The notes: generated from the letters alone by a model not told the origin. A stretch of DNA of 64,000 bases from Alphaproteobacteria bacterium (GCA_028690155.1 JAQVBU010000011.1:12370-76369); one strand, 5' to 3'. Positions 2,358 through 33,322 are shown, numbered from the stretch's first letter. Program-made: numbers and translations.

Positions 2358-2390
2358 TCGGAGGCGGCGTTGCCAAGGAGAAGGCGTAAC

Positions 2391-15494: not shown

Positions 15495-15565
15495 GGTTTA
15501 TTAATAAATTGTTATTTCAATCCTTTTAAAATGGATTCTCGGCTTTTAGAAAGAGACGGTCTGCC

Positions 15566-16441
15566 ATGTACATGGTTGCTTTTTTGGCGCTGCTCGTGGC
15601 GCTTATCGGAACCTTCACCCAAGTTCATATGAACCAAGCTTCTTCCAGCATGGCTCAACAGTCCGGCGTCGTCGAGTCCTTGGCATCGTGGCATGCGACG
15701 GCCGTGGATTTGGCGCAGAAGTATATTAATACTGCCTCGGCATCGGAATGTTCAATGACCTGCGAAACGCTGGAAAAAGCCCCCGGCGCACTTTCTCTTT
15801 CCACGACCACAGAGCCGGTCGCCGTTGGCGGTTTGTCAGATAACGCGTCCATTAATGCGGATGTGTGGTGGCGCGGCCCCGGAAAGCCCCACTTTCCGGA
15901 TCATGAGGATCCTCCAGTTGTCCAAAAAACGTCCGTTTCTCTATGTAGTGGTTCTTCCGCTTCTTGCGTTTGGGATGAATCGAACGAAACTATTTGCAGT
16001 GGGGAAGGCAAAACGCCCTGTTTTTCCGTTTTGCCCAGCGGATATAATATGAATTACAAATTCTATTCCATCGAGTTTAAGAATACCGACGACAAGTACT
16101 ATGTTTTAACATTCGTGCCGCCTCCGGCCTCGAAAGGCGATGCTTTCGGCGTCGGGCTTTTGTGCCTGCCGGGCAAGATCGACGAGACAGCCGATGGTCC
16201 CTGTCCTTCTCCGCAGAAGCAGGTTTCGATGACTTTCAGCAATCTTTCCAAGGAAATGGAAAAAACGGGGCTTATTCCGCCGACAGCCTACGGCACCGTC
16301 AAGCAGACGGGAAAATTGACGCCCCATATGACGTTGGAGGGGACGACTAAGGGCTCCTACTATACGGTGCCGAGCGTCGTTCCCGTTGGGTCTTTAGGGG
16401 TTATAACAGAGGTCGTTCCATGCTCAAATTGCAGCAGTTAA
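15566..16441 (+). CDS. Membrane-anchored Cys-rich exported protein, possibly a PilM-like accessory of a type IVb pilus
   Basis: Hydrophobic N-terminus MYMVAFLALLVALIG; 10 Cys; overlaps the start of the PilV-like gene. The PilM link is from context only. Confidence 0.45.
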   Translation: MYMVAFLALLVALIGTFTQVHMNQASSSMAQQSGVVESLASWHATAVDLAQKYINTASASECSMTCETLEKAPGALSLSTTTEPVAVGGLSDNASINADVWWRGPGKPHFPDHEDPPVVQKTSVSLCSGSSASCVWDESNETICSGEGKTPCFSVLPSGYNMNYKFYSIEFKNTDDKYYVLTFVPPPASKGDAFGVGLLCLPGKIDETADGPCPSPQKQVSMTFSNLSKEMEKTGLIPPTAYGTVKQTGKLTPHMTLEGTTKGSYYTVPSVVPVGSLGVITEVVPCSNCSS

Positions 16442-17901
16442 CGGGGGCAACGGTGCCTGAGGAAAAAGAAAAGGCGAGGCGCGGTATAAGAAAAAGCCGT
16501 TCTTCGGGCTTCACGCTTGTCGAGCTTGCCATCGTTTTAGGTGTGGCGGGCGTTCTTTTTGGCGGCCTTTGGCGGCTCATGTCCACCAGCAACGCGCAGA
16601 TGCGCGACCAGACGGCGGCGAACCAACAGGCTCAATTGATCGCGGCCGTGAACACCTATCTTCAAACGTCGAAGGGGCAAAAGGATTTGGCCGACCTTGG
16701 TCCAAACGAAAATGGCCCACTTAAGCTTCCCCCAGTGAAAGACCCCGCCGGAAAGCCTTCGTGCGAAGGCAACGCGCCCTCTCCGGGATTATGCTCGATT
16801 TTGCCGGCCGGGGTGTCCGCGGGAACGACAAACCCCTACGGGCAGATCTATAATATTCGTATCAAGAAGGACGACACGCTAAAAGGTACGCCGCCACGCA
16901 CGTATTCATTCATGATTATGACGTCCGGGGGCGACACGATACCGGACGCTTCCGGCGGCCGGATCAGCGCCATGATCGGCGGCGACGGCGGTTTTATCTA
17001 TAGTACGGATACCTGTGGAGATCCTGCGGCGCAATATGCATGCGGTTCTTATGGTTCGTGGAGTTCTGACCTTCACGACGACGACACCTATGGATTTGAT
17101 GCCGACATCGTTAAAGTTGGGCATATTGCTTCGCGGACATACTATCTTCCGTCCCAGAGTGCCAATGAGTTTTGGCTCGCCCGTAGCGCTGTTCTTGGAG
17201 ACACCAATTTTACTTATAACACGATGACCACAGGGCTGTATTTGGACAATCAGACCTTGTCTCTTAAAGAGGGGAAGATTGATTTTGGTTCCGACTACGG
17301 CATCGAAGGACCAACTACAACGCTGAATGATAAAGGAGACACGGTGATTCATCCCGGAGAGATAAAGTTAGTAGGGGAACCCTTCAGCATAGAACTGACG
17401 GCCGATATGTCTAATGGTGGAAATCCGGCGTTCTCATTAAAAGGGGGGTGTACGACCCTCGCCTCTGGCACCGAGCCCCTAGTTAATTATGCCGCCGGCT
17501 GTCAGCCTGTTCAGCAGGTTTTGGGCGACGTTACGGTCGTGGGACAATTGGAGGCGACGGGCCTTTATGCGGTAACCTTCATTTACAATACCTCGGATCG
17601 GCGGTTGAAGGAAAACATCAAACCGATCGACAAGGCACTCGACAGGCTTGGCAAGATCAAACCGGTTTCCTTTACCCTTAAGGCGACGGGCCAGAAAAGC
17701 CTTGGCGTCATCGCCCAAGACCTTGAAAAAGTTTATCCTGAACTTGTCAGAAACGAAAAGGACGGGTTCAAGTCGGTTGCCTATGACGGCCTTATTGCGC
17801 CGTTGATCGCTTCGGTTCAGGAGTTGAAGAAAGAAAACGACGCCCTACGCGTCCAGATGAAGGACCTCGATAGAAGACTTCGCGTTCTCGAAAAAAAGTA
17901 A
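16420..17901 (+). CDS. PilV-like type IV tip pilin with C-terminal Peptidase S74 tail-fibre chaperone domain
   Basis: G|FTLVELAIVLGVAGVLFGGLW; RISAMIGGDGGFIY resembling the shufflon PilV N-domain; C-terminal SDRRLKENIKPI...GVIAQDLEKVYPELV...VAYDGLIAPLIASVQEL plus coiled coil. Confidence 0.88.
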   Translation: MLKLQQLTGATVPEEKEKARRGIRKSRSSGFTLVELAIVLGVAGVLFGGLWRLMSTSNAQMRDQTAANQQAQLIAAVNTYLQTSKGQKDLADLGPNENGPLKLPPVKDPAGKPSCEGNAPSPGLCSILPAGVSAGTTNPYGQIYNIRIKKDDTLKGTPPRTYSFMIMTSGGDTIPDASGGRISAMIGGDGGFIYSTDTCGDPAAQYACGSYGSWSSDLHDDDTYGFDADIVKVGHIASRTYYLPSQSANEFWLARSAVLGDTNFTYNTMTTGLYLDNQTLSLKEGKIDFGSDYGIEGPTTTLNDKGDTVIHPGEIKLVGEPFSIELTADMSNGGNPAFSLKGGCTTLASGTEPLVNYAAGCQPVQQVLGDVTVVGQLEATGLYAVTFIYNTSDRRLKENIKPIDKALDRLGKIKPVSFTLKATGQKSLGVIAQDLEKVYPELVRNEKDGFKSVAYDGLIAPLIASVQELKKENDALRVQMKDLDRRLRVLEKK

Positions 17902-17911
17902 TTTCTGATCG

Positions 17912-18265
17912 TTATTTCTCGACCAGTTTGCACTGGAACACACACGTGTCCGGCGTTTTCTGTATGACGCAGCATACGGGGGCAAGGCCTCCTTTCCCGT
18001 TCTTTTTTTCTTCCCTCGCCGTCAGGCATCCGTCCGTGTCGAGGCCGGCGAAATCGTCGAAGACGTCGTTCTCGTTTTTGAATCCGAATCCCCGTGCCAG
18101 GCAGGCTTGGCCTTCTTCGACCCATTCGGAAGCGGAGAGGTCGTAGCTGCGGCAGGGCACTTCGGTCGAGCAGGTATAACGGCCGAAAACGTGGCCCGTT
18201 TCGCCTACGGCAGAGGATGGCAGGGCGACAAGAGCAACAAGAAGGGACAACGGGATATAACGCAT
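17912..18265 (-). CDS. Small secreted Cys-rich protein
   Basis: GGAG RBS, ATG at 18265, signal peptide MRYIPLSLLVALVALPSSA, 8 Cys in about 95 mature aa. Confidence 0.7.
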   Translation of the reverse strand: MRYIPLSLLVALVALPSSAVGETGHVFGRYTCSTEVPCRSYDLSASEWVEEGQACLARGFGFKNENDVFDDFAGLDTDGCLTAREEKKNGKGGLAPVCCVIQKTPDTCVFQCKLVEK

Positions 18266-18385
18266 GGGGACTCCTCCGATACAAGAAAGATGGCGCGACG
18301 GCAGGCCGCGCGCGCGATTCATCTTCATAATATGCGGAAATTTGGCATGAACATCAAGCGAGAGACGTCCGTTGCCCAAAAAGTC

Positions 18386-18544
18386 TCAATGGACGCTTGT
18401 CGGTTTCATATGATTTTGGCGTACAAGAGCGAAAGCGTTGTCGCGGTCGGCTGTGATGCTGAGCGGCGTGCCATCGGCGGCATAGATTGATTGATAGGTG
18501 CGTCCGCCGACGGTGATGGGCTTGACGTAGGCGACGTTGCTCAT
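18386..18544 (-). CDS. DUF1150-family small protein
   Basis: VAYVKPI...IYAADGTPL...RDNAFALVRQNHMKPTSVH fits the DUF1150 pattern, including the terminal SVH. Confidence 0.75.
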   Translation of the reverse strand: MSNVAYVKPITVGGRTYQSIYAADGTPLSITADRDNAFALVRQNHMKPTSVH

Positions 18545-18784
18545 ATCGCAGGCCTTGAAACCGATTTTAGGGTTTGGTTTCCGTAACGTGAAAGGAAGAG
18601 CTTTTGAAATCATGATAGGATGGAAGCTAGGAAAGATATCATGGCCAACGTCCTGAAGACGCATCGAAAAAACATACGACCATAAAAAAGATAACCAATT
18701 CTTAAAATTCAGCTTATGCTTAACAGAAAAGAACGATCGGTTATCGAAGAAGACCTTCTTTCAACGAGACTTAAGGAGGCTTTT

Positions 18785-19912: not shown

Positions 19913-20334
19913 GGAGACCGTTCGTCCGTTTTGATAATTGGCGTGTTTTCAAGTGTCCGGTGAAGAGGAGACTTGGCTGAAACGTCGATCAGTTTTGCCC
20001 GTTGTTCCTCGGTCAGGTCTGCACCACGTACGATAACGTGTTTTTCAAACACATCAACGGGATAGGGCGCCCCTTCGCGGCGTTCCTTATGAAAATCCAC
20101 AAGGACTTCAACTTCTTCGAGGGGCCAATTCTGTTGTTCGGCATACAGCCGTATCGTTATGGCCGTACATTCGCCCAAGGCAGCGGCCAACAGGTCATAG
20201 GGACTGGGGCCTGTGTCGTTGCCGCCGAAGGAAACGGGCTCGTCCCCCTTAATTCTGAAACCGGAAACATCAATGGTCACGGCATAGGGACTTTCGCCGT
20301 TTTCGCGTACGTGCGCGTGAGTTTTTGCTGACAC
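19909..20334 (-). CDS. OsmC/YhfA-family protein
   Basis: DEPVSFGGNDTGPSPYDLLAAALGECT; second Cys position reads KSPLHRTL. Confidence 0.85.
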   Translation of the reverse strand: MSAKTHAHVRENGESPYAVTIDVSGFRIKGDEPVSFGGNDTGPSPYDLLAAALGECTAITIRLYAEQQNWPLEEVEVLVDFHKERREGAPYPVDVFEKHVIVRGADLTEEQRAKLIDVSAKSPLHRTLENTPIIKTDERSP

Positions 20335-20578
20335 TACAGGCCTCCTTCGTGATTCTGTCTGGGCGAAGGATAGCTTGAAGAAAGAGGCTTGCCTAGCGGC
20401 GAGGGGCTAGCATGCTTCGAAGAAAAATCAAGTTTTTTCATGACGATAATGAAAATTATGTCCAAAGTGTGTTTTCTTGTCTGGACATTGCGGAGTTCAC
20501 AGAATAGAGAGGACAACTCAACAGGTCGTTAAAAAGTTAACGATCAGCACTGTCATAACAACAGAGGGCTATGAGATT

Positions 20579-20824
20579 ATGAGCGATATTGCAGAACAAG
20601 TGAAGAAGATCGTTGTCGAGCACTTGGGCGTCGATGCGGCGAAAGTCACGGACAACGCCAGCTTCATTGATGATCTTGGCGCGGACAGCCTCGACACCGT
20701 CGAGCTCGTCATGGCCTTTGAAGAAGAGTTCAGCATCGAAATTCCGGACGATGCAGCGGAAAAGATCACAACGGTCAAGGATGCGATCGACTTTATTAAT
20801 GCCAAGAAAGCATCGGCAGCCTAA
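20579..20824 (+). CDS. acpP: Acyl carrier protein
   Basis: [25 protein letters not shown]. Confidence 0.98.
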
Positions 20825-20866
20825 ATTCCGTTTGAAACGCTTTTGTTCTTGAAGAGGCAGGAGTCT

Positions 20867-24286: not shown

Positions 24287-24466
24287 AGGGAAAAACATTA
24301 TGTCGAGAGAGGTATCTCTTTATAAAAAATGTTTTTTCTCCTCCTGAGTTAACTAAAAATAAACTTGCTTCGTCGAAAACTTCCTTCATGGCGAGGTCCA
24401 CGCTGTATGCGGGGAGTTTGGATTGATTCTGCTTATTTTTTGTCTTCCTTTGGGGGCTCTTCAGGT

Positions 24467-26530
24467 ATGACGCGATATCTAGTTGTTCTGGCTCTCGTTC
24501 TGGGTATGGGAGGGTGTTCTGCGTGGGACTTACCTTCCATTCCTGATTTGGAGGACCATGGCGCCATCCCGACCAAAATTCCCGGAAGGGAGGATGTCGT
24601 TCGAGGCGATAAAGACCCGGCTATTGTTACCTTAAAGCTGAAGTCGGGACTTCGGGAAAAAAGACTGATCGTATCTGAGAATCTTCCAAACGATGTTATC
24701 GTTCCCACAACCAATTTGAACGGCGTTCCTATCACCGCCGCGCTTCAGGCCGTGTTGTCTGGAACGGATATCGCGTTGTCTTGGGATTCCGGGGCCATGG
24801 GGTCGCGTCTTGTGACGGTCATGAACCTTCGCGGTCCCTTGTCCCGTGTTGTCGAAAAAATATGCTCAGCCGCCAAGGTATTCTGTACCTATCGCCACGG
24901 CTCGATCGAGTTGTCCGAGAAAGAGATTTTTGTTGTAAGCCTTCCCCCGATCGCGCGGGCGGTGTCGGCTGGCTCGATTTCTTCGTCGTCTTCGGCGCCT
25001 TCTTCTTCGGTGCCTCAAGCTGCGGCGGGCGTCAGCAACACGATCGTCGATGCTATCAACAAGCTCTTGGACGGCGAGACCGCGACGGTGGATGAACAGG
25101 GGGGCAACATTGTTTACACGGCGACGGTCGATGCCGAAGAGCGCGTGGCGCGTTACCTGAAGGAACTTCGGACCGAGCGTCCTTTGATCGTGATGCAGAT
25201 GTATATCTGGGAAGTTATGCTGGATCAAGCAAACGCGCAGGGGATCAAATGGGATTCCTTCCAGAATACGGCGATGAAAAACGCGACGCTGTCGTTGTCG
25301 AACAGCTTGACGTCGCTTGAATCCACGGCGGGTAGCATTAGTCTCGGCGCTGTAACGACGGGGAACTTCTCGGCGGATGTCGTGGCTTCTTTCGTGGCAA
25401 CGAAGGGACGCATCAAAACGATCAGTAATCCCCAAATAACTTTTGTGTCAGGCTCAACGGGTTCGCTTAAGGTTGGGGGAACGCAGAAGTACATTTCGGA
25501 GGTTGGGACGTCTTCTTCAAGCGACGTGAGCGGAAGCTCCAGCAGCAGCTCCACCAATACCGTGACGACCGATACGATCGACACGGGCCTCTCCGTATCG
25601 ATTTCTGGTGCCTATGAAAATGGCGTTGTCTTTGCAAGTTTGGATCTGTCGATCAAAAGCCTTGTGAGCCTTAATCCAACCCAAAGCGGAAGCGGGACGA
25701 TCGATCTTCCTGAGACGACCGACGAAATGATGAATACGATCTTGCGTGTACGACCGGGCGACAGCGTTATTTTGGCAGGCCTTGTTTCGTCCAGCGAGTC
25801 GGGGTCATCTCAAGGCTTTCCTTTAGGAACGGAAACGGCTTTGCCTCTTTACGGGAAGGATTTGCGCGAAAGCCGGGAACTTGTGCTGATTTTAAAACCT
25901 TCGGTCATTCTTTTCGAGGAGGACGACGCGTCGGATCATGGCTCTAAAGGGTCTCATTCTTCACCGGCTGAACCGTCGACAAAGAGCACGGTCCATGCCT
26001 TGCATAATTCAGAGGACAAGAAGCCCCCAGCTTCCAGGATTCAACCCGCGATGGTTTCTGAGACGACAACAAGGACGGAGAACGTTTCCAGAGAGAATAA
26101 GAGCACGGTTAAAAAGAAAGACTCTGTGGCAGCTCCTGTTTCTTTGGAGGAAGAGGATGCGCGGATGATTTCCGTTTCGCCTGATGAGGTAGAGAAAGGA
26201 GAGAAAAGCATTTCCGATTCAACCTTGGGGGCGAAGAATGGACCCCATTCCGTGACGGAAGCGAAATCTGAAAGCATGCCCTCGAAGTCTGCGGAAGAGG
26301 GCGGTTCTTGGGGGTTTGTGCATGCCTTTGACTCATTGATTCATCCCTCAAAGAAATCCGAAGTCCCGGCGGTTAAGGACACAACGAAGGCCATTCCTTC
26401 ACCTTCCGTTGAGAAAACTTCCGTTGAGAAAAAAAGTGGGGCAAGCGGGGACTCGTTCGACTTCTCGCATGCCTTTGACACCTTGCTTGGCCCGGCTCAG
26501 GAGGCTGGGCCCCCGAAGGGGGTTCAATGA
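24467..26530 (+). CDS. Lipoprotein secretin (PilN/BfpB-like) with long low-complexity C-terminal extension
   Basis: Lipobox LGMGGC (Cys17); IYIWEV-like strand, GIKW, ISNPQIT, DTGLSVSI, VRPGDSVILAGL, ELVLILKP secretin-domain motifs. Confidence 0.88.
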   Translation: MTRYLVVLALVLGMGGCSAWDLPSIPDLEDHGAIPTKIPGREDVVRGDKDPAIVTLKLKSGLREKRLIVSENLPNDVIVPTTNLNGVPITAALQAVLSGTDIALSWDSGAMGSRLVTVMNLRGPLSRVVEKICSAAKVFCTYRHGSIELSEKEIFVVSLPPIARAVSAGSISSSSSAPSSSVPQAAAGVSNTIVDAINKLLDGETATVDEQGGNIVYTATVDAEERVARYLKELRTERPLIVMQMYIWEVMLDQANAQGIKWDSFQNTAMKNATLSLSNSLTSLESTAGSISLGAVTTGNFSADVVASFVATKGRIKTISNPQITFVSGSTGSLKVGGTQKYISEVGTSSSSDVSGSSSSSSTNTVTTDTIDTGLSVSISGAYENGVVFASLDLSIKSLVSLNPTQSGSGTIDLPETTDEMMNTILRVRPGDSVILAGLVSSSESGSSQGFPLGTETALPLYGKDLRESRELVLILKPSVILFEEDDASDHGSKGSHSSPAEPSTKSTVHALHNSEDKKPPASRIQPAMVSETTTRTENVSRENKSTVKKKDSVAAPVSLEEEDARMISVSPDEVEKGEKSISDSTLGAKNGPHSVTEAKSESMPSKSAEEGGSWGFVHAFDSLIHPSKKSEVPAVKDTTKAIPSPSVEKTSVEKKSGASGDSFDFSHAFDTLLGPAQEAGPPKGVQ

Positions 26531-27846
26531 TGGCGAGGTCCCTTTTTCTTTTGTTTGGCTTTTTGGTCGTTGCCGCAGTCTTTTGTGTCGACGCGTCTTC
26601 GACTTGGGCGCGGGAGGCCTCTTTTCTTAAACCGAACACGGGGGCCGGATCGTCGGATAGTGCGGTTATTGTCGAACCAAAAGCTGATATCGAAGTCGGC
26701 GAAACGACGGTCGACGTGTCGAAGAGAGTGACCATTTTTTTCGCGAACCAAACCAGCACACCCGTCACGATTGAGAGCATTGCCTTGACGAGCGATACCT
26801 TTGTCGAGGCCGAGAAGGTTGCCAGCGATTGCGAAAAGCAAGGCCAGATCCTTCCTCTTAGCCGTTGCAGTGTCGAGATTTCCGTCACGCCGTCGGGGGA
26901 GGGGGCTTGGAGCGTCGATGTTCTTATGACGCACAACGGAGCCGGACGCATTGCTCGAGCTCGGTTGTCAGGGCGAACTCCCGGATTCGGGGAAGGGAAA
27001 AACATGGGGTTGGCGGTAAGTTCGCACGAGGTTAAGCCCATAGACTTTGGAAGCGTTGATGCCGACGGAGGGAAGATTGTTCGTTCGTCGTTGATGGTGA
27101 ATGACAGTCCGGATGTGATCACCATTCAATCTATTGATGTTATTGAAGCCAGCAACGGTTTGGAGCGCTTGGATCAGGGCTGCAAGGAAGGCATGGTTCT
27201 GGCCCCCGGCGCGGCGTGCCCTGTGACCCTGTTATGGATTCCCGAAAACGACGAGCCCGTTTCGACGGATTTAATCATTCGTCATAGCGGAAAGTTGGGC
27301 TTTGCCGTTATTCCCGTTCGAGGGGCGGTCAAGAACGTTGTCGCTTCTTCAGGCAAGGAAAAGACGAAGACTTCGCGTGAATCATCGAAAAATCGCGTTC
27401 CGTTGCCTCTTTCAGCCAAGGATCTTGAAAACGAAATTAAGGGGAAAATCCCTCAAATTTCCGTAACCTCCTCTTCAAATGGCGAAGTCAGGGAGATTTG
27501 GGGAACCACAGGGTCTTCTTCGCGCAGTGGCGGTGAAGATTCGTCCGATCAGTCCAAGGGCAAACTTAGCCTTATCGGGACCGTGGGGGCCCGAGGACTT
27601 TTTCTGCTGCCTTCCGGGGAGATGCGCGTTGCTTCCGTGGGTGAGGAGCTTGACACAGGTCTTGGGTTTGGCCGGCTTGTTGCCGTTCGGGCACAGGAAG
27701 CGGATCTTATGGTGAACGATAAACTTCTTACCGTGCCCCTTCAGGCCTCGGATTCTCTCATTTCTTTTGCTTTGGAGCAAAACAATCGGCGTGGCGACAC
27801 GAAAGGGGAGAAGCCCGGTGGTAACATCGGCGTTAGCGTAAGATGA
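26527..27846 (+). CDS. Exported pilus-assembly accessory protein with two Ig-like (ASH/PapD-like) domains
   Basis: Signal peptide; two repeats of the pattern xDFG/EVG...N.S..V.I.SI....C..G..L.P...C.V.L...P; C-terminal LIGTVG...VGE segment reminiscent of PilP/GspC-like strands. Confidence 0.6.
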   Translation: MMARSLFLLFGFLVVAAVFCVDASSTWAREASFLKPNTGAGSSDSAVIVEPKADIEVGETTVDVSKRVTIFFANQTSTPVTIESIALTSDTFVEAEKVASDCEKQGQILPLSRCSVEISVTPSGEGAWSVDVLMTHNGAGRIARARLSGRTPGFGEGKNMGLAVSSHEVKPIDFGSVDADGGKIVRSSLMVNDSPDVITIQSIDVIEASNGLERLDQGCKEGMVLAPGAACPVTLLWIPENDEPVSTDLIIRHSGKLGFAVIPVRGAVKNVVASSGKEKTKTSRESSKNRVPLPLSAKDLENEIKGKIPQISVTSSSNGEVREIWGTTGSSSRSGGEDSSDQSKGKLSLIGTVGARGLFLLPSGEMRVASVGEELDTGLGFGRLVAVRAQEADLMVNDKLLTVPLQASDSLISFALEQNNRRGDTKGEKPGGNIGVSVR

Positions 27847-29606
27847 CGGACATCTCCCTTTCTGCTGTGGTTCCTTCCGATGCCATTTTTACGCAGGCTA
27901 GGGCGCACCACGTTAATCCGAAACACTATGAGCTTGCCCTTGCCGAGCAGGCTATGCGCCGCCAGAACGGGCGGTTGATGTCCATTGAGGAAATTCTGCA
28001 CCGCAATGGGTTTTCAAGCGTCGAACATGTTTCTCAAACCACCAAAAACGACAGCAGCGACGACCTGACGATGCAGGCGCTGCGCCTTTATGTGTCGTCG
28101 GCGGCGCAAACGGCTATGGGGCTTTGCCTTCTGGAACTGCGGCAAGGAATTCTCCATATTGCTGTTGGCGACCGCGTGGATGATGCGGACCTTCTGAGGA
28201 TAACGAAGGCCTTGGCGCGCGCGGGCCACAAGATCAAAAAGGTCGATGTCGAAGCGTGGGACCGAGCGGATCTTGCCCGGTTGATGCGCGAACAAGGCGA
28301 AATGGCCGGCGATCGATTGCTTCGATTGCTGCTGGAGCTGGCGCGTGATCCGGACGATGCGTCTTTGGTTGAAGAGGCGGTCAAGGATCTTTTGGCCGAA
28401 GCTCTTCAAAGCCGTACCTCCGATATTCATTTGTCGTTGCTTGATGACGACGCACAATGCTGGATTCGGTATCGCATCGACGGCGATCTTGTATACAAGC
28501 ACCTTGTGCCGCATCGTGTCATGGCGCCGATCGTGACGCGTATCAAAACGGATGCCAAGATGGACGCGGCCGATCGTCAGCATCCCCAGGACGGGCGTCT
28601 TGGGTTCGAGTGGCAGGGCCGTATGATCGACGTTCGCTGCGCGTCCTTGCCTGTTGCGCCGGCGGGCGAGAAGCTGACATTGCGTTTGTTGGATCGGGAA
28701 AACCTCAGGTCTTTTGACGAGCTTTTCCTTCATGCCCCCATCGTGGCCGAAAAACTGCGCAAAGCGGTTCACGCCCATACAAAAGATGGCGGATTGATCG
28801 TGGTCAGCGGCCCGACAGGATCAGGTAAATCAACGACGCTTTACGGCATCATTCAGGAAATTGATCGGGCGTCGCGCGCGGTCTATTCGGTGGAAGCGCC
28901 GGTCGAATACGATATGCCGTTGGTCGATCAAACATCGGTAACCGACAATTCGGCAAACTCGATCGCCGATATTATTCGTGCGCTTATGCGGCACGATCCG
29001 GACGTCATCATCGTCGGCGAAATGCGTGATGGCGACACGGTCGAAGCGGCTTTGCGCGCGACGGAATCCGGCCATATGGTGATCACGACCGTCCACTCGG
29101 TCGACGCGTTGCATACTTTGGACCGTGTTGACGGCTTTTTAAGCTCGGCTTATCGGACGAGCGGCCTTTATATTTTGGGTCACGCGTTGGTGGCGAGCCT
29201 TTCGCAGCGTCTTGTGAAGACGTTGTGTCCCGCGTGTCATCAAAAGAAAAAGGCCATTGATGTGCTGGGCGGGGAGGAACGTTGCAAAGAACTTGGAATT
29301 GACCCCAAAGCGACATTGGCTATTGCCAACAACAAGGGCTGCGATTTATGCGGGCATAGCGGTTTTCTTGGCCGAACGTTGGCTTTGGAGGCCATGTTTC
29401 CACCAGACGACCAGGCGAGCCGTCGCGCCATAACCGAGATGATGGTGTCCAACGTAACGTCGTCGATTGTCGATGTTCCGGGAACCATTTACATTCCGCG
29501 GCGCGAATCGATTCTTGATCTCATTCGCCGCAACGCCATTGATGCCAATATGGGCGCGTCGATGTTGATTGAAGAAGTTTCGATGACGTCACGCGGCAGG
29601 GGGTAG
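27843..29606 (+). CDS. PilB/GspE-type (PilQ-like) pilus assembly ATPase
   Basis: SDIH, RYRIDG, QDGR, Walker A GPTGSGKSTT, Asp box VEAPVEY, Walker B DPDVIIVGEMRD, His box TTVH, CPAC...CDLC Zn knuckle. Confidence 0.95.
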   Translation: MTDISLSAVVPSDAIFTQARAHHVNPKHYELALAEQAMRRQNGRLMSIEEILHRNGFSSVEHVSQTTKNDSSDDLTMQALRLYVSSAAQTAMGLCLLELRQGILHIAVGDRVDDADLLRITKALARAGHKIKKVDVEAWDRADLARLMREQGEMAGDRLLRLLLELARDPDDASLVEEAVKDLLAEALQSRTSDIHLSLLDDDAQCWIRYRIDGDLVYKHLVPHRVMAPIVTRIKTDAKMDAADRQHPQDGRLGFEWQGRMIDVRCASLPVAPAGEKLTLRLLDRENLRSFDELFLHAPIVAEKLRKAVHAHTKDGGLIVVSGPTGSGKSTTLYGIIQEIDRASRAVYSVEAPVEYDMPLVDQTSVTDNSANSIADIIRALMRHDPDVIIVGEMRDGDTVEAALRATESGHMVITTVHSVDALHTLDRVDGFLSSAYRTSGLYILGHALVASLSQRLVKTLCPACHQKKKAIDVLGGEERCKELGIDPKATLAIANNKGCDLCGHSGFLGRTLALEAMFPPDDQASRRAITEMMVSNVTSSIVDVPGTIYIPRRESILDLIRRNAIDANMGASMLIEEVSMTSRGRG

Positions 29607-29612
29607 GCTGAC

Positions 29613-30830
29613 ATGAAACTTTTTCATGCCAAATATGCCCAGATGCGCCATGGATACGTTTCTATTCAGGAAGACGATTTTTATCTTCCCGATCAACATG
29701 CGGTTCGTCGTCATTTGAGGAGCAACGGGTTTTTCCCCGTCGATATTCGGGAACAAAGGCAAAGCCTTCTTGAATGGGCGGACGTGCGATCCCGAGGGTG
29801 GCAAATACAACTTTTGCGCGCGCTCCGATTTCAAGGGGCCACGGCATCCGCGGGAACGGCGTTGTTAAACATCATTGAAGGTGAAAGCGATCCCAAAAGA
29901 CGGTTGGCTTTTCTTCCGACTCGTACCGTTCTTAAAGGGGGAGGTTCGTTTTCCGAAGCGTTGAAGGCGTTACGTTTGTTTGATGCGGCCACGATGGCGA
30001 TTATCACGGCGGGCGAACGGGCGGGCGACTTGAAAGGCGTCATTCAGCATGCGATTGAGCATACCGAAGAAAAGGGAAAGCAGACAAAAGTCATTATAAC
30101 GGCCCTTAGCTGGCTGTCGTTCGATATCGTCAACATCGTGGGAACGATCTGGGGCGCTCAGTTCGGATTCATTCCCTACTTGAAAAATCAAGGAGCCAAG
30201 ACATCGGACGCAGCCGCCGTTGAAAAATTCGATCATGCCATCGCGGTTGCATCCCGGATCAACATGGCCCTTTTGGTTCTTGTGACAACCATCGTCATCG
30301 GGGGCATGGTTTTTGTTGCCCTTTATTGGTTCAACAGACAACAACCGGATCACTACACGTCGAAGATACTGATGAAGATGCCCATTATGTCTTCCTACCT
30401 CAGAAATTCCAGCATCAAGGAAAGTTGCAAACTTATGCAGCGCCTCTTAAACGGCAAAGTTCCTTTGGCGGATGCGTTGGACATCATCATCGAAAGCGTT
30501 AATGAGCCTTCATGCCGCCTTTATTGGACGGAGTGCAAAGGCCGCGTTATGGCCGGAGCGGAGCCATCACGCGCTTTGGCTCGTTGGCCTCTTACAAAAG
30601 GCGAACAAGATCAGGTTCGAACTATACAGTCTGTTTCTCAGCTTGCCGAAGTCTATGCCGCGATTGCCGAGGAGAGGGGATTGATGGCCAAGACCGATCA
30701 ACGACGTTTGGCCATTTCCGGCGTTATCCTCATGATGGTTTTGGCGGGGGCGACAATTTTGACGATGGTGTATCTTTTGGTTATTCAGAATCAGAGCTTT
30801 CTTGATAGTCTCACCGAACTGCGTTCATAA
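29613..30830 (+). CDS. GspF/PilC (PilR-like) inner-membrane platform protein
   Basis: Two repeats (GGSFSEAL...AGERAGDL; GKVPLADAL...GAEPSRAL) and three TM helices. Confidence 0.88.
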   Translation: MKLFHAKYAQMRHGYVSIQEDDFYLPDQHAVRRHLRSNGFFPVDIREQRQSLLEWADVRSRGWQIQLLRALRFQGATASAGTALLNIIEGESDPKRRLAFLPTRTVLKGGGSFSEALKALRLFDAATMAIITAGERAGDLKGVIQHAIEHTEEKGKQTKVIITALSWLSFDIVNIVGTIWGAQFGFIPYLKNQGAKTSDAAAVEKFDHAIAVASRINMALLVLVTTIVIGGMVFVALYWFNRQQPDHYTSKILMKMPIMSSYLRNSSIKESCKLMQRLLNGKVPLADALDIIIESVNEPSCRLYWTECKGRVMAGAEPSRALARWPLTKGEQDQVRTIQSVSQLAEVYAAIAEERGLMAKTDQRRLAISGVILMMVLAGATILTMVYLLVIQNQSFLDSLTELRS

Positions 30831-30889
30831 TTTAGGGGCAGGGGGACGAAGAAGACGCCGTTCTTGATTGCCAGAGGGATTTTGGAAAC

Positions 30890-31969
30890 ATGGATGACGA
30901 GTTAGAAAGGAAAAAAGATTTTTTTATGGACGTCTTGTTCGGTAGGGGCAGGACGTTTAGGTCGGCTGCTGACTCTTCGTTGCCGGACGAGGAAGATATC
31001 GGCGCGTCTCCGTCTCCATCTCCGTCCTCGTCAATGATGCAAAGTTTGGGCGGGGCTATCACTCAAATCGAGGACTTTTTCTTCCCCTCCGACGTTGTCG
31101 GTGGGGTTTGTCCGCGCGTTGTCGGCGAGGAGGAAGCGATCGTTTGGAACGCCGCAGCCGAGGCTTGTGACAGCGAACGCGTTCATGTTGTTTGGCGCGC
31201 GGTAGACAATAATATTTGGTACTTGGCGGTACGTTCAGACAGCATGGCGTCGCATACGAAAACATGGTGTCCTTTAGCCGCCCTTCTGCCAACTTCCGAG
31301 ACGATCGAGACCCTTCCTGTTTGTTACACGTATTTTGGGGAAGAACTTGCCGTTCTTATGGTCGTTACGGCTGAGGAACTTCACATCTTCCGAGGAACGG
31401 CGTCCGTGATCAAAGCCAAGGCCGATCGTATCGTCGCGGAACACGAGGGAAAGGCCCAGACTGTCAATATTGATCCTTTCCTTATAGGTCAGATGACTCC
31501 CGTACCTTGGTATTCGGTGTCCCTTTTCGAGGAAAGAGCTCGGCGCATTTTGGCGGTGGTCTCTCTTTTGGCGGCGCTCGTCGTTTTAGGCATTTCCTTT
31601 TTTGTTTGGTTTGTCAGCAATATGACCACGGTGGCGTTGCGGCATAATATCGAGGAAACGACCATACGAACGCAGGACAAGGCGCGCGCTTTGTTGAGAC
31701 AGGCTGAAGATCTGCGCAAAAGCTCGTTGCAGGAACAAATAGAAAAGTTTTTGCAGATTAATGATGGCCTTTTGCCCTTGAATGGCTTTCTTGTTGTTTA
31801 CAACGTTGACGATAAGGGCATCCGGTGGAAAGCCGTGGTTCCTCCCAGCGCGACGGCGGATCGTATTTCCGGTCTTGGCGCCATGAGTATCGAAACGACC
31901 GAAGACGGGGTCACGATAGAAAACAAAGCGCAAGTTCTGTATGAACAGGAAAGTAAGAGGAGGCGGTAA
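30890..31969 (+). CDS. Pilus assembly/alignment protein (PilO/GspL-like by position)
   Basis: Cytoplasmic domain, single TM near aa 220-245, then coiled coil and small periplasmic domain; located in the pilus operon. Confidence 0.5.
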   Translation: MDDELERKKDFFMDVLFGRGRTFRSAADSSLPDEEDIGASPSPSPSSSMMQSLGGAITQIEDFFFPSDVVGGVCPRVVGEEEAIVWNAAAEACDSERVHVVWRAVDNNIWYLAVRSDSMASHTKTWCPLAALLPTSETIETLPVCYTYFGEELAVLMVVTAEELHIFRGTASVIKAKADRIVAEHEGKAQTVNIDPFLIGQMTPVPWYSVSLFEERARRILAVVSLLAALVVLGISFFVWFVSNMTTVALRHNIEETTIRTQDKARALLRQAEDLRKSSLQEQIEKFLQINDGLLPLNGFLVVYNVDDKGIRWKAVVPPSATADRISGLGAMSIETTEDGVTIENKAQVLYEQESKRRR

Positions 31970-32478
31970 TGTCTGTTTCGCCGAATTTTTTGATTCGGGT
32001 CTTCTCACCGCGCGTCGTCTATATGGCCATCAAAAGCTTCGATCGGTCGACGGCTGTGATTATTGGCCTTGCGTGGGCTGTTGCCTGCCTCATGCTTTTC
32101 TTTGCTTCCCTTTCGATTCGCGGTGTGGTTGATTCGAAGAGAGAGGCCCTTCTTGCCTTGGCGCAGGAACCCGTTTTGCCCAAAATTACGACCGCGCCTA
32201 TTCGGTTGAACAATATCGAGCCCATTCTTTCTAGGCTCAAAAGACAATTTCCGGAAATCAATATTGATCAGCGGGAAGGAAAGTTCCTAACCCTAAGGAG
32301 CAATGATGGGGCCTTGTTTCATCAATGGATTTCCGCTCTTAGCTATATTGATTCGATGACCCCCGAGATCCGGTGGGACCTTCGGGAATTCTGTGTTGGG
32401 GCTTGCGGTGGGGGGGGCGGGTTGATGAGTGCTACTTTGGTGGGACGTGAGGTTTCTATCTCTTTACCCCCAAAGTAA
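31969..32478 (+). CDS. Bitopic pilus assembly protein (GspM-like by topology)
   Basis: One N-terminal TM followed by a ferredoxin-like-sized domain; translationally coupled to the previous gene. Confidence 0.45.
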   Translation: MSVSPNFLIRVFSPRVVYMAIKSFDRSTAVIIGLAWAVACLMLFFASLSIRGVVDSKREALLALAQEPVLPKITTAPIRLNNIEPILSRLKRQFPEINIDQREGKFLTLRSNDGALFHQWISALSYIDSMTPEIRWDLREFCVGACGGGGGLMSATLVGREVSISLPPK

Positions 32479-32495
32479 AAAACTGTTTAGAGGCC

Positions 32496-32526
32496 TTGAC
32501 TTCTTTTATGAATGATGGTGTATAAC
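32496..32526 (+). promoter_or_regulatory. Possible sigma70 promoter for the pilin gene
   Basis: TTGACT...TATAAC, but the spacer is 19 nt (long). Confidence 0.35.
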
Positions 32527-32587
32527 TAATAATTAGCACACTCAAAGTACTAAGCTTTCTGCAACGGCAACCCTGAGGGGAACGAGC

Positions 32588-33322
32588 ATGGTTCAGCGGA
32601 GTGGTGAGGGACTTTTATCCCCTAACGCGGGTATTGCAATTGGACCGATTCTCTTCATCGTAGCGATCTTGGCGATTCTTGCTGCCGCCATTGCGGCGGG
32701 AAGCGGAAGCTTTACAGCGGGGACGACACAGGAAGCCAACAAGACAAAATCATCGGCTCTTATTCAAATTGGGGACACTTTGGCGACGGGTATGGCCCGT
32801 ATTATGATGTCGAATGTTTTGGATCCGGAGCAAATCGACACCAATGTCCAGAATACAACGGGGCTTAGTGCTCTTTTTTCGCCGGTTGGAGGCGGGATTT
32901 CGGCTCCGTCTGTCGGCATGGCAAACTACCCTCTTTACGATACGTGGGCCTTTCCGAAAGGCAATATCAGCGGGTTTGGAACGGCAGGCAACGAAATCTT
33001 GGCCGTTATTCCCGTGTCAAGAGGCGTTTGTTCCGAAATCAACAATCGTGTGGCCGGTATTGCCGCTGTTCCGCCTGCCGGCGATTACGGAACTTTCCTG
33101 AGCACAGGAGCCAGTCAGGCGACGGGAGATTTTCCGGCTTCGAGCGCGACATGGACGGTCGGCGCGACAACGACCACGACAACGGGGCCGACGCTTCATG
33201 CGGTGTCAACGGGATGTCTTTATAATACCGGGGCAGCGTTGGGCACGGGGTGCGGGGCAGGTACCTGTACGGCAGGACCGACAACGCAATTCTTTTTCTA
33301 TCAGGTTCTGGCGGTTCAATAA
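32588..33322 (+). CDS. Putative major pilin with non-canonical class III signal (no Glu5)
   Basis: 15-aa leader ending NAG|IAIGPILFIVAILAILAAAIAAG; amphipathic helix; C-terminal Cys residues; last gene of the pilus cluster. Confidence 0.7.
   Translation: MVQRSGEGLLSPNAGIAIGPILFIVAILAILAAAIAAGSGSFTAGTTQEANKTKSSALIQIGDTLATGMARIMMSNVLDPEQIDTNVQNTTGLSALFSPVGGGISAPSVGMANYPLYDTWAFPKGNISGFGTAGNEILAVIPVSRGVCSEINNRVAGIAAVPPAGDYGTFLSTGASQATGDFPASSATWTVGATTTTTTGPTLHAVSTGCLYNTGAALGTGCGAGTCTAGPTTQFFFYQVLAVQ

What the first reader, a model, noticed from the sequence alone, without database searches (positions are those of the whole stretch)
16420..17901. Type IV tip pilin fused to a phage tail-fibre S74 autocleaving chaperone
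Seen: a single ORF combines a 30-aa leader with G|FTLVE class III signal, a PilV/shufflon-N-like domain, a beta-rich segment and a C-terminal S74 domain with the SDRRLK Ser-Lys dyad and coiled coil. Established: S74 domains fold trimeric phage tailspikes and fibres and then cleave themselves off, and they occur in Bdellovibrio prey-recognition fibres; type IVb tip pilins such as CofB and TcpB form trimers at the pilus tip. Inference: a pilus tipped with a phage-derived trimeric receptor-binding fibre matured by self-cleavage, suited to recognising prey, host or recipient cells. No shufflon cassettes or invertase follow it, so specificity is fixed here. This is one of the two best candidates for an undescribed system in the window.
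Basis: partly seen in the sequence, partly recalled or inferred. Interest (0 to 1): 0.85.

Follow-up and report, generated by a model that had tools for sequence, protein, structure and literature searches.

The report
Pilus-tip pilin with phage-fibre chaperone
This gene encodes a PilV-type pilus-tip protein whose outer end has been replaced by a phage tail-fibre tip and its self-cleaving trimerising domain, so these small-genome alphaproteobacteria probably tip a type IVb pilus with a phage-style binding fibre; the domain combination is catalogued but has never been studied.

Summary
ORF 16420..17901 (493 aa) has a class III prepilin signal (G30|FTLVE), a PilV-like pilin domain (aa 31 to about 285), a hypervariable fibre segment (about 286-391) and a Peptidase_S74 chaperone domain (392-493). 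The Ser392/Lys397 dyad is invariant in 115 homologues.

It is the middle gene of a conserved three-gene module: a leaderless pilin-like protein, the fusion, and a small 8-Cys secreted protein. The gene occurs in 70 of 71 genomes of its order, usually once, and is rare elsewhere in the class.

In two related genomes the module ends a complete R64-type type IVb pilus operon (TcpQ-PilN-PilO-PilP-PilQ-PilR-PilS). In this genome that machinery lies on another contig. It is not the pilus-like cluster at 24-33 kb of the window.

Best reading (0.6): the PilV-equivalent tip subunit of a chromosomal type IVb pilus. It would trimerise in the periplasm through S74, shed an 11.6 kDa fragment, and display a phage-like receptor-binding tip for cell-cell attachment. 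Trimerisation, cleavage, tip location and ligand are all untested.

Novelty is moderate. A 2021 survey of modular pilins lists pilin+S74 as a frequent architecture and read it as a peptidase. I found no experimental work.

The parts
15566..16441 (+). Leaderless pilin-like partner gene (291 aa). It starts directly with a hydrophobic helix (MYMVAFLALLV...), with no prepilin leader, no Gly-1 and no Glu5. It overlaps the fusion gene by 22 nt.
   Evidence: It lies adjacent and co-oriented upstream of the fusion in 21 of 23 loci; the 2 misses are at contig ends. The start position is conserved, with only 4 codons back to the preceding stop in L023. The AlphaFold2 model has helix 2-53 followed by a beta sheet, but mean pLDDT is only 60, and Foldseek found no match. 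There are no Pfam or NCBIfam hits. The equivalent gene sits between the PilS-like pilin and the fusion in G188 and G240.
16420..17901 (+). The PilV-like type IV pilin / phage-fibre / S74 fusion gene (493 aa, 52.8 kDa precursor).
   Evidence: There are at least 267 full-length homologues at 38-52% identity.
16420..16509 (+). Class III signal leader (aa 1-30, or aa 12-30 if GTG 16453 is the start). The predicted prepilin-peptidase cut is after Gly30.
   Evidence: The sequence reads GGC(G30)|TTC ACG CTT GTC GAG. N_methyl scores 23.8 bits. L33 and E35 are invariant in 115 sequences. A PilD-like peptidase is present in the genome at C27:115787-116563.
16510..17274 (+). Pilin module (aa 31 to about 285): alpha-1 helix 33-82 plus a PilV-like globular domain carrying the conserved GGRIS..IGGDGGFIY motif and two Cys pairs (C115/C125, C199/C208).
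   Evidence: AlphaFold2 pLDDT is above 90 over aa 40-240. hhalign against plasmid PilV gives 97.3% probability, E 2.3e-11. tblastn hits pilV genes. Homologues pass Shufflon_N.
17275..17592 (+). Hypervariable, indel-rich fibre segment (aa ~286-391) with the conserved Cys pair C344/C361. It is predicted to be the trimeric distal tip exposed after cleavage.
   Evidence: This is the least conserved part of the protein (top-residue frequency 0.23-0.25 over aa 281-300 and 321-360) and its length varies from 44 to 152 aa. It resembles phage tail fibres upstream of the S74 domain. Confidence in the monomer model is low to moderate.
17593..17901 (+). Peptidase_S74 intramolecular chaperone domain (aa 392-493, 11.6 kDa) plus the stop codon. 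Catalytic Ser392 is at 17593-17595 and Lys397 at 17608-17610. The C-terminal coiled-coil helix spans aa 455-492.
   Evidence: PF13884 scores 63.3 bits. S392, D393 and K397 are invariant. PDB profile hits include 6f45, 8jov, 7dc3 and 3gud. Foldseek matches the MyRF ICA domain at E 2e-5 and the endosialidase chaperone 3gw6 at probability 0.99. 42 PHROG tail-fibre and baseplate families match, best E 2.9e-30.
17912..18265 (-). Small secreted 8-cysteine protein. The likely start is M39 of the 155-aa ORF 17912..18379. It has a Sec signal (MRYIPLSLLVALVALPSSAVG) and a mature part of about 95 aa. It is the third member of the module.
   Evidence: It is adjacent downstream of the fusion in 20 of 23 loci. 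The alignment shows a signal peptide and 8 conserved Cys. It lies on the same strand, directly after the fusion, in the intact operons of G188 and G240. It has no family hits.

Best explanation
The gene encodes the PilV-equivalent minor (tip) pilin of a chromosomal R64-type type IVb pilus.

Proposed sequence of events:
1. The precursor inserts into the inner membrane through its class III signal and alpha-1 helix, and a PilD-like peptidase removes the leader after Gly30.
2. In the periplasm, the C-terminal S74 domains of three precursors associate through their coiled-coil helices. They template folding of the preceding about 100-residue segment into a trimeric, phage-fibre-like tip stabilised by disulfides.
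3. Once the trimer is correctly formed, the Ser392-Lys397 dyad cuts each chain before Ser392. This releases an 11.6 kDa chaperone fragment and leaves a 37.9 kDa mature pilin (aa 31-391).
4. The resulting homotrimer, possibly together with the leaderless pilin-like protein encoded just upstream, primes assembly of PilS-like major pilins. The machine is the TcpQ/PilN/PilO/PilP/PilQ/PilR set encoded on contig C22 of this genome, so the trimer ends up at the pilus tip.
5. There the hypervariable segment binds a surface structure of another cell, most likely a polysaccharide as for PilV and phage fibres.

Status of each step:
- Shown by computation: the domain composition, the homology to PilV and to phage fibre ends, the invariance of the catalytic dyad, the conserved three-gene module, the operon position in relatives, and the presence of all machine parts in this genome.
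- Inferred: trimerisation, cleavage, tip location, the ligand, and the biological role (attachment to prey, host or partner cells in a clade of about 2 Mb genomes).
For: Domain identification.

PilV homology:
- hhalign 97.3% probability, E 2.3e-11.
- tblastn to annotated pilV genes.
- Shufflon_N over threshold in homologues.

Pilin features:
- F1 and E5 are invariant, and S392/D393/K397 are invariant, in 115 of 115 sequences.
- The AlphaFold2 model has a 50-residue alpha-1 helix and a confident pilin domain.
- Three conserved Cys pairs fit an exported protein.

Operon evidence. In G188 and G240 the gene order is ATPase-TcpQ-PilN-PilO2-PilP-PilQ-PilR-PilS-like pilin-leaderless ORF-fusion-8Cys protein. 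The in-operon proteins carry N_methyl+Peptidase_S74, and the G188 pilin matches PF08805 PilS at 53 bits.

Machinery in this genome:
- PilN family TIGR02520, 268.9 bits.
- PilP TIGR03021, 38.5 bits (over cut-off).
- TcpQ PF10671, 57.9 bits.
- PAP_PilO PF06864, 74 bits.
- PilQ- and PilR-like genes are colinear with these at C22:62.9-70.6 kb.
- PilS-like pilins lie at C32 and C23, and a PilD-like peptidase at C27.

Phyletic pattern:
- All 9 genomes of a 301-genome class sample with a PilV-like hit also hold an orthologue (at least 41% identity) of the C22 PilR.
- The fusion is in 70 of 71 genomes and 28 of 28 genera of the order, typically one full-length copy.

Precedents, from the literature and from my own knowledge:
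- S74 self-cleavage at SDxxxK, blocked by Ser-to-Ala, is shown for a Bdellovibrio fibre (PMC10769870).
- CofB forms a trimer predicted at the type IVb pilus tip (discussed in PMC8179133).
Against: - No experiment exists for any member of the family. AlphaFold2 was run only as a monomer, so the trimer is not modelled, and aa 250-310 have pLDDT below 65.
- The window protein itself misses the Pfam Shufflon_N threshold.
- Foldseek similarity to the trimeric minor pilin CofB is not significant (E 2.3, probability 0.10).
- In this genome the gene is unlinked from any pilus machine.
- A second, unrelated pilus-like cluster (window 24365-33322) shows an equally clean co-occurrence with the full-length fusion in the class sample: 6 of 6 against 0 of 295. 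Machine assignment therefore rests on homology and on operons in other genomes.
- These co-occurrence counts are not phylogenetically independent.
- The fibre segment is short (about 100 aa per chain), so 'fibre' may overstate a stubby tip.
- The predatory or epibiotic lifestyle rests only on small genome size and on relatives being named Bdellovibrionales or Micavibrio.
Confidence: 0.6

Rival explanations
1. Same protein and same maturation, but it is assembled by the other pilus-like system, the one inside the window at 24365-33322 (lipoprotein MshL-like secretin, 439-aa accessory protein, GspE-like ATPase, GspF-like platform, and three unknown proteins including a non-canonical pilin-like gene).
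For: - The cluster lies only 6.5 kb away in this genome.
- Close orthologues (at least 52% identity) of its platform protein occur in exactly the 6 of 301 class-sample genomes that hold the full-length fusion.
- By contrast, the platform of a third system (contig C2) is widespread, in 104 of 301 genomes.
Against: - The proximity is not conserved. In G050, G057, G188, G220 and G240 the two are on different contigs or hundreds of kb apart.
- The cluster is not R64-like. Only its ATPase matches R64-type proteins, at 25% identity, and its secretin best matches MshL.
- The fusion sits inside the R64-type operon in G188 and G240.
- This platform is absent from genomes with PilV-like proteins such as G110, G117 and G323.
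Confidence: 0.1
2. The pilin-like N-terminus serves only as a membrane anchor or export signal. The protein would then be a short pseudopilus cap or a cell-surface or periplasm-spanning trimeric fibre that is never carried on an extended pilus, functionally like Bdellovibrio MAT fibres.
For: - Genomes of the order carry many other S74-ended proteins, in reading frames up to 9801 aa, so S74 fibres are a general surface theme here.
- One paralogue in this genome has an S74 domain with no pilin part.
- The gene is unlinked from machine genes in this genome.
Against: - F1 and E5 and the whole alpha-1 helix are conserved as in polymerising pilins.
- The globular domain is homologous to a proven pilus-tip adhesin.
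- In relatives the operon places it after the major pilin, as for pilV.
- MAT fibres use a Sec signal plus a different N-terminal domain.
Confidence: 0.15
3. The pilus is a mating pilus, as in IncI plasmids and PAPI-1. The protein would be a fixed-specificity recipient-recognition adhesin for DNA transfer rather than for predation or host attachment.
For: - The closest characterised relatives of both the pilin domain and the machine are conjugative thin-pilus components.
- PilV adhesins bind recipient LPS (abstracts).
Against: - The flanks are housekeeping genes, with conserved synteny in relatives.
- No type IV secretion or relaxase genes lie next to the module or next to the C22 cluster ORFs inspected.
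- The gene is near-universal and single-copy across an order of about 2 Mb genomes, which is core-gene behaviour rather than that of a mobile element.
- No copy exists in 72,556 plasmids.
Confidence: 0.1
4. The S74 module acts as a true peptidase on external substrates, as suggested in the 2021 modular-pilin survey. Alternatively it is retained uncleaved as a mere trimerisation domain.
For: - PMC8179133 reads IPR012902-IPR030392 as 'peptidase activity'.
- Cleavage has not been tested for this family.
Against: - In every characterised S74 protein the Ser-Lys dyad cleaves only its own chain, after trimer assembly. This is shown for Bd3182 in PMC10769870, and the structures matched here are intramolecular chaperones.
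- The dyad and its SDxxxK spacing are invariant, which argues against a non-catalytic remnant.
Confidence: 0.05

Closest known systems
PilV, minor pilin and tip adhesin of conjugative type IVb thin pili (IncI1 R64, IncI2 TP114, PAPI-1)
   Same: - Class III signal.
- Homologous pilin/constant domain: family columns 32-274 align with PilV 19-217, including the LPxGF..TNxYxQTY, IGxxGGxI, GxWS, GH(I/V)A and NxMxTxLxLG motifs.
- It is the last pilin of a TcpQ-PilN-PilO-PilP-PilQ-PilR-PilS operon in relatives.
- It has a variable distal part.
   Different: - There is no shufflon, no Rci recombinase and no alternative C-terminal cassettes.
- From about aa 285 onward the PilV constant and variable regions are replaced by a phage-fibre-like segment plus S74.
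- The gene is chromosomal and core, with no conjugation genes nearby, and in this genome the operon is split over several loci.
- No plasmid PilV covers 80% or more of the protein.
Phage tail fibres and spikes with a C-terminal S74 intramolecular chaperone (K1F endosialidase 3gw6, S16/T4-like long tail fibre tips 6f45, T5 L-shaped fibre)
   Same: - C-terminal S74 domain with an SDxxxK dyad and a coiled-coil helix.
- Sequence similarity extends into the fibre part upstream of the cleavage site.
   Different: - The N-terminal attachment module is a type IV pilin rather than a virion-binding domain.
- Folding must occur in the periplasm on a membrane-anchored precursor.
- The fibre part is only about 100 residues long.
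Bdellovibrio bacteriovorus MAT fibres, S74 subgroup (e.g. Bd3182; PMC10769870)
   Same: A bacterial, not viral, use of S74-matured trimeric fibres as cell-recognition adhesins, with the same SDxxxK motif.
   Different: [quoted passage not shown]
- Pilins are not mentioned in that paper.
- Here the carrier is a pilin and the protein is about 490 aa.
CofB and TcpB, trimeric minor pilins that cap and initiate type IVb pili of ETEC and Vibrio cholerae
   Same: A large minor pilin of a type IVb system, with the pilin module first and beta-rich domains after it. A homotrimer at the tip is the proposed working form (discussed in PMC8179133).
   Different: - There is no detectable sequence relationship, and fold similarity is not significant (4qs4, E 2.3).
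- CofB and TcpB trimerise without a cleavable chaperone.
Modular type IV pilins (PilB and PilC of Streptococcus sanguinis; survey in PMC8179133)
   Same: A pilin module with a grafted functional module. The architecture IPR012902-IPR030392 (pilin + S74) is explicitly listed among the 15 most frequent.
   Different: - The survey treats S74 as a peptidase effector.
- It does not note the PilV relationship, the fibre segment, the trimer/chaperone logic, the operon context or the taxonomic restriction.

Membership tests
Type IV pilin (class III signal, IPR012902 / PF07963) | Leader ending in Gly, then a hydrophobic residue at +1 and Glu at +5 | tested here: met
   The sequence reads ...SSG30|F31TLVE35. 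N_methyl scores 23.8 bits against a cut-off of 21.2. L33 and E35 are invariant in 115 sequences.
Type IV pilin (class III signal, IPR012902 / PF07963) | Alpha-1 helix of about 50 residues packed on a globular alpha/beta domain | tested here: met
   The AlphaFold2 model has helix 33-82 and a globular domain 84-254 at pLDDT above 90.
Type IV pilin (class III signal, IPR012902 / PF07963) | Prepilin peptidase available in the genome | tested here: met
   There are three Peptidase_A24 hits. C27:115787-116563 (258 aa) has Cys-rich motifs (CLYC...CPC) N-terminal to the A24 part, which I read from my own knowledge as PilD-like, and the GLGDVKF motif.
Type IV pilin (class III signal, IPR012902 / PF07963) | Polymerised into a filament | not testable with these tools
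   This needs purified pili, immunogold labelling or cryo-ET.
PilV / Shufflon_N (PF04917) tip adhesin of R64-type thin pili | Homology to the PilV N-terminal constant region | tested here: met
   hhalign gives 97.3% probability, E 2.3e-11. tblastn hits annotated pilV genes at E 4e-6 to 7e-5. The window protein itself is below the Pfam threshold. Homologues P0003, P0048 and P0029 score 31-34 bits against a cut-off of 27.5.
PilV / Shufflon_N (PF04917) tip adhesin of R64-type thin pili | Encoded at the distal end of a pilN-pilO-pilP-pilQ-pilR-pilS operon | tested here: inconclusive
   This is met in G188 and G240. In this genome the machine (C22), the PilS-like pilins (C32, C23) and the PilV-like module (window) are unlinked.
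PilV / Shufflon_N (PF04917) tip adhesin of R64-type thin pili | Shufflon: Rci recombinase, sfx repeats and invertible C-terminal cassettes | tested here: not met
   There are only short, imperfect chance repeats in 15500-21000. The neighbours are a small secreted protein, DUF1150 and a 398-aa ORF that looks like alanine dehydrogenase (not scanned).
PilV / Shufflon_N (PF04917) tip adhesin of R64-type thin pili | Part of a conjugative element | tested here: not met
   The flanks are housekeeping genes and are syntenic in relatives. There is no full-length match in 72,556 plasmids. The gene is core in the order.
Peptidase S74 / C-terminal intramolecular chaperone domain (PF13884) | Profile match over threshold at the C-terminus | tested here: met
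   63.3 bits against a cut-off of 22, aa 392-444. 26 of 26 family members match. Structure matches: 7dc3 at E 2e-5 and 3gw6 at probability 0.99.
Peptidase S74 / C-terminal intramolecular chaperone domain (PF13884) | Ser-Lys dyad in an SDxxxK motif | tested here: met
   S392-D-R-R-L-K397, with S392, D393 and K397 invariant in 115 of 115 sequences. The motif is as defined in PMC10769870.
Peptidase S74 / C-terminal intramolecular chaperone domain (PF13884) | Trimer-dependent autocleavage releasing the domain | not testable with these tools
   This needs expression of the wild type against S392A and K397A. No multimer prediction was available.
Bdellovibrio MAT fibre family | Sec signal followed by the conserved beta-rich N-terminal domain of about 130 aa | tested here: not met
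   The N-terminus is a class III signal plus a PilV-like pilin domain.
CofB/TcpB-type trimeric type IVb minor pilins | Fold similarity of the pilin and C-terminal domains | tested here: inconclusive
   Foldseek of the whole model gives CofB 4qs4 at only E 2.3, probability 0.10, over 241 columns. The query was dominated by the S74 part.
Modular pilins (PMC8179133) | N-terminal IPR012902 motif plus a domain not specific to type IV pili | tested here: met
   N_methyl + Peptidase_S74. The architecture is named in the paper.

The most novel reading that the evidence does not exclude
A clade of about 2 Mb, probably predatory or cell-attached, alphaproteobacteria has domesticated a phage receptor-binding tip as the head of a chromosomal type IVb pilus.

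In this reading S74 autocleavage does more than fold the tip. Because it fires only in a correctly assembled trimer, it would act as the licensing step for pilus initiation: three pilin helices joined at their far ends become the obligatory primer. The leaderless pilin-like protein and the 8-Cys secreted protein would be dedicated tip partners, playing roles comparable to an initiator pilin and to the CofJ/TcpF-type tip-bound secreted factors.

The hypervariable segment (aa ~286-360) would then set prey or host range, as a phage fibre does.
Probability: 0.3. Interest if true: 0.8.

Novelty: new variant of a known kind. Interest (0 to 1): 0.55.

Why it matters
If the model is right, it joins two well-studied machines in a way nobody has examined. 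A phage quality-control module that forces trimerisation and then removes itself would build the tip of a type IV pilus.

That bears on an open question in type IVb pilus biology: how a homotrimeric minor pilin forms and primes assembly. Here there is a clean biochemical handle, Ser392 to Ala.

It would also point to the likely cell-recognition device of a large, uncultured, small-genome alphaproteobacterial order in which the gene is core (70 of 71 genomes), with a ready-made hypervariable region to correlate with targets.

Practically, the annotation 'tail fiber domain-containing protein' suggests a phage gene, although the module sits among housekeeping genes with conserved synteny. The published reading of this architecture as a 'peptidase' pilin is probably wrong as well.

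Tried and rejected
- Prophage origin: rejected. The flanks are housekeeping genes (MreB, HisRS, PBP, Fur, ACP/FabF), synteny is conserved in relatives, and composition is unremarkable.
- Window cluster 24365-33322 as the cognate machine: this was my working idea. I downgraded it after finding the R64-type cluster on contig C22 and the intact operons in G188 and G240.
- Paralogue family with variable middles in one genome: not found. There is one full-length copy, plus one unrelated S74 fibre (C10, with dockerin-like repeats and a C-terminal TM) and one remnant without the dyad (C40).
- Fold of the upstream ORF: the model has pLDDT 60 and Foldseek gave nothing meaningful. Its word-based homologue search found only 9 proteins.
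- Foldseek of the whole fusion model: it did not resolve the pilin-domain relationship, because S74 dominated.
- Relationship between the gene upstream of an Acetobacter plasmid pilV and the window's upstream ORF: none.
- Micavibrio ARL-13 transcriptome tables: several prepilin genes are listed, but orthology to this gene could not be established without sequences.
- Literature searches for Peptidase_S74 + pilin, intramolecular chaperone + minor pilin, endosialidase + chaperone + type IV pilin, and S74 + type IV pilus + tail fibre all returned nothing.


Full report
**Observation.** The window holds an uninterrupted ORF at 16420..17901 on the + strand, 493 aa.
- Pfam finds Peptidase_S74 (63.3 bits, E 2.6e-17, aa 392-444) and the prepilin N_methyl motif (23.8 bits, above its cut-off of 21.2, aa 26-50). 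NCBIfam adds weak pseudopilin-type N-terminal hits.
- The DNA reads ...GGC|TTC ACG CTT GTC GAG, that is Gly30|Phe-Thr-Leu-Val-Glu35.
- The leader is 30 aa from ATG 16420, which is preceded by AGAGG. It would be 19 aa from the in-frame GTG at 16453. Homologues have leaders of 9-20 aa.
- The S74 motif is S392-D-R-R-L-K397.

**A real, conserved family.**
- A word-indexed search found at least 267 full-length homologues (38-52% identity, about 95% coverage). [quoted passage not shown]
- An exhaustive profile search of 1.84 billion cluster representatives gave 382 representatives at E<=1e-30. Most of the 150 best listed (roughly 110) match the profile end to end, and those are about 430-600 aa long.
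- In an alignment of 115 members, L33, E35 (Glu5 of the mature pilin), S392, D393 and K397 are invariant. So is much of a GGRIS..IGGDGGFIY motif. Six cysteines (115/125, 199/208, 344/361) are at least 90% conserved.
- Conservation is high in the alpha-1 helix, the pilin domain and S74. It is lowest over aa 281-300 and 321-360, where length also varies (44-152 aa between N267 and C344).
- After both predicted cleavages the mature protein would be aa 31-391 (37.9 kDa) and the released fragment aa 392-493 (11.6 kDa).

**Domains.** The AlphaFold2 monomer model (115-sequence alignment, mean pLDDT 83) shows four regions:
- a 50-residue alpha-1 helix (33-82);
- a globular alpha/beta domain (84-254, pLDDT above 90);
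- a poorly defined stretch (about 250-310), followed by moderate confidence up to 390;
- a confident S74 domain ending in a long helix (455-492).

Foldseek matches the C-terminal part to the MyRF ICA domain (E 2e-5) and to the endosialidase intramolecular chaperone 3gw6 (probability 0.99). CofB appears only at E 2.3. A profile search of PDB sequences hits phage long-tail-fibre tips (6f45, 8jov), MyRF and phi29 gp12 with the C-terminus, and type IV pilins with the N-terminus. PHROGs gives 42 tail-fibre or baseplate families for aa 366-493 (best E 2.9e-30), and phrog_1980 spans aa 245-486. tblastn against phages also extends upstream of S74, to about aa 260.

**The front half is PilV-like.**
- The window protein hits annotated plasmid pilV genes ('shufflon system plasmid conjugative transfer pilus tip adhesin') at E 4e-6 to 7e-5.
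- A 46%-identical homologue hits 614 plasmid records, down to E 7e-11.
- Several homologues pass Pfam Shufflon_N.
- hhalign of the family profile against the PilV of Klebsiella plasmid p447-IMP gives 97.3% probability, aligning family columns 32-274 with PilV residues 19-217.
- The chimera junction is therefore near aa 285.
- No plasmid record covers 80% or more of the protein, so the fusion is absent from 72,556 plasmids.
- No shufflon-type repeats or recombinase follow the gene.

**Gene context.**
- The flanks are housekeeping genes (MreB, HisRS, a PBP, Fur-like, DUF1150, ACP/FabF and others) and are syntenic in close relatives.
- What travels with the gene when the flanks change is a three-gene module.
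- The first member is an upstream, co-oriented ORF (15566..16441, overlapping by 22 nt). It begins directly with a hydrophobic helix (MY[ML]xxF...), with no leader, no Gly-1 and no Glu5. It is present in 21 of 23 loci.
- The third member is a small downstream protein with a Sec signal and eight conserved cysteines, present in 20 of 23 loci.
- Neither partner has family hits.
- The upstream protein models as a 52-residue helix plus a beta sheet, at low confidence and with no structural match.

**Distribution.**
- In the window's own order, 70 of 71 genomes and 28 of 28 genera have the gene, nearly always as one full-length copy. These genomes are mostly 1.5-2.4 Mb and carry many other S74-ended proteins.
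- In an even sample of 301 genomes of the class, full-length copies occur only in the 3 sampled genomes of this order and in 3 genomes of other families (G188, G220, G240). Weaker or PilV-only relatives occur in G110, G117 and G323.
- This genome has one full-length copy. It also has an unrelated S74 fibre and a remnant.

**Which machine?** This genome has several type IV filament systems.

I first suspected the cluster inside the window at 24365..33322: lipoprotein secretin, 439-aa accessory protein, GspE-like ATPase, GspF-like platform and three unknown proteins. Close orthologues of its platform occur in exactly the six class-sample genomes that have the full-length fusion, whereas the platform of a third system on contig C2 is widespread (104 of 301).

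That cluster is not R64-like, however. Searching the genome with R64-type proteins then revealed a colinear TcpQ-PilN-PilO-PilP-PilQ-PilR cluster on contig C22 (62.9-70.6 kb). Curated models confirm it:
- PilN family TIGR02520, 268.9 bits, just under its cut-off of 287.65;
- PilP TIGR03021, 38.5 bits, over its cut-off;
- TcpQ PF10671, 57.9 bits;
- PAP_PilO PF06864, 74 bits.

Orthologues (at least 41% identity) of its PilR platform occur in all nine class-sample genomes that have any PilV-like hit.

Decisively, in G188 and G240 everything is one operon: ATPase - TcpQ - PilN - PilO - PilP - PilQ - PilR - a pilin (PilS-type by Pfam in G188: PF08805 53 bits, Bundlin) - a leaderless ORF - the N_methyl+S74 fusion - the 8-Cys protein. 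This matches the R64-type order, with the fusion in the pilV position.

In the window's genome the operon has been broken up:
- the machine is on C22;
- PilS-like pilins are on C32 and C23;
- a PilD-like peptidase is on C27;
- the distal three-gene module is in the window.

**Mechanism.** I commit to the following model, at about 0.6.
1. The precursor is a membrane-anchored prepilin, processed after Gly30.
2. In the periplasm three precursors are brought together by their S74 domains, which template the preceding about 100 residues into a trimeric, disulfide-stabilised, phage-like tip.
3. The Ser392-Lys397 dyad then cleaves each chain, releasing the chaperone.
4. The trimer, perhaps with the leaderless pilin-like protein, primes polymerisation of PilS-like pilins by the C22 machine and so caps the pilus.
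5. The hypervariable segment is the ligand-binding surface, most likely for a surface polysaccharide, by analogy with PilV and phage fibres.

The domain logic, homologies, conservation and operon position are shown. Trimerisation, cleavage, tip location, ligand and lifestyle are inferred. The lifestyle inference rests on small genomes and on 'Bdellovibrionales/Micavibrio' naming of relatives; NCBI files Micavibrio under Bdellovibrionales. S74 self-cleavage at SDxxxK, abolished by Ser-to-Ala, is experimentally established for a Bdellovibrio fibre (PMC10769870). CofB is discussed as a tip trimer in PMC8179133.

**Rivals.**
- Assembly by the window's own cluster (0.1).
- A non-pilus surface or pseudopilus fibre that uses the pilin part as an anchor (0.15).
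- A conjugative mating adhesin (0.1).
- A true peptidase or an uncleaved domain (0.05).

Evidence for and against each is given in the rival entries.

**Novelty.** Full-text searches for the combination returned nothing, and the Bdellovibrio MAT paper does not mention pilins. Raynaud et al. (PMC8179133) list IPR012902-IPR030392 among the 15 commonest modular-pilin architectures and interpret it as 'peptidase activity', without further analysis. Earlier follow-ups of this scan reached the same reading for relatives in other genomes; these are not independent evidence.

What this window adds:
- order-wide, single-copy conservation;
- the conserved three-gene module;
- the ancestral operon and its break-up;
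- the caution that the neighbouring pilus-like cluster is probably a different system.

I rate it a new variant of a known kind (a PilV-type or modular tip pilin), with interest 0.55.

**Limits.** No multimer prediction was available. Phyletic co-occurrence was not corrected for shared ancestry. Organism names of the genome handles are hidden.

Noticed in passing
window 24365-33322: A separate type IV filament cluster. It has a lipoprotein secretin (721 aa, best NCBIfam match MshL at 105 bits), a 439-aa secreted accessory protein, a GspE/PilB-like ATPase (587 aa), a divergent GspF-like platform (405 aa), and proteins of 359, 169 and 244 aa with no family. Close orthologues of the platform occur in only 6 of 301 class-sample genomes. 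It is not R64-like.
   Followed up: partly
window 32588-33322; genome C40:60027-60785 and C40:59466-59984: The 244-aa protein with a non-canonical signal (…SPNAG|IAIGPILF…, no Phe1, no Glu5) has a paralogue sharing the same N-terminus on contig C40. That paralogue sits directly beside a short (172 aa) Peptidase_A24 gene, which suggests a pilin class with its own dedicated peptidase.
   Followed up: partly
window 2370-2981: A 203-aa prepilin-like gene (MATSSRRG|FSLTE) lies right after mreB and before hisS. Its homologues lie within a few kb of the fusion gene in L028 and L031, so it may be another pilin of the same type IVb system.
   Followed up: partly
genome C22:62887-70569 (locus L080): A complete R64-type type IVb machine (TcpQ, PilN, PilO, PilP, PilQ, PilR) with no pilin gene attached. 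A 338-aa T2SSE-family ATPase at C22:75099-76115 matches the second ATPase of the IncI2-type pil cluster and could be a retraction or accessory ATPase.
   Followed up: partly
genomes of the order and genome C10:60281-61699: These ~2 Mb genomes carry many other S74-ended proteins, some in reading frames of 2,000-9,800 aa. The copy on C10 of this genome has dockerin-like DINGDG repeats and a transmembrane segment after the S74 coiled coil.
   Followed up: no
G323:C1:447520-450000 (locus L079 16521-19001); G117: Sister lineages have PilV-like pilins of about 770-835 aa with a long C-terminal part that has no family match and no S74 in the 827 aa held (G323). The same PilV base seems to carry alternative tips.
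   Followed up: partly
window 4405-7431: A 1008-aa PBP1-like protein has only weak transglycosylase (39.8 bits) and transpeptidase (18.2 bits) matches, which makes it unusually divergent for a class A PBP.
   Followed up: no
genome C2:48000-58000 (locus L075): A third pilus or T2SS-like locus: lipoprotein secretin, two prepilin genes, a 624-aa ATPase and a 405-aa platform. Its platform has homologues in 104 of 301 class-sample genomes.
   Followed up: partly
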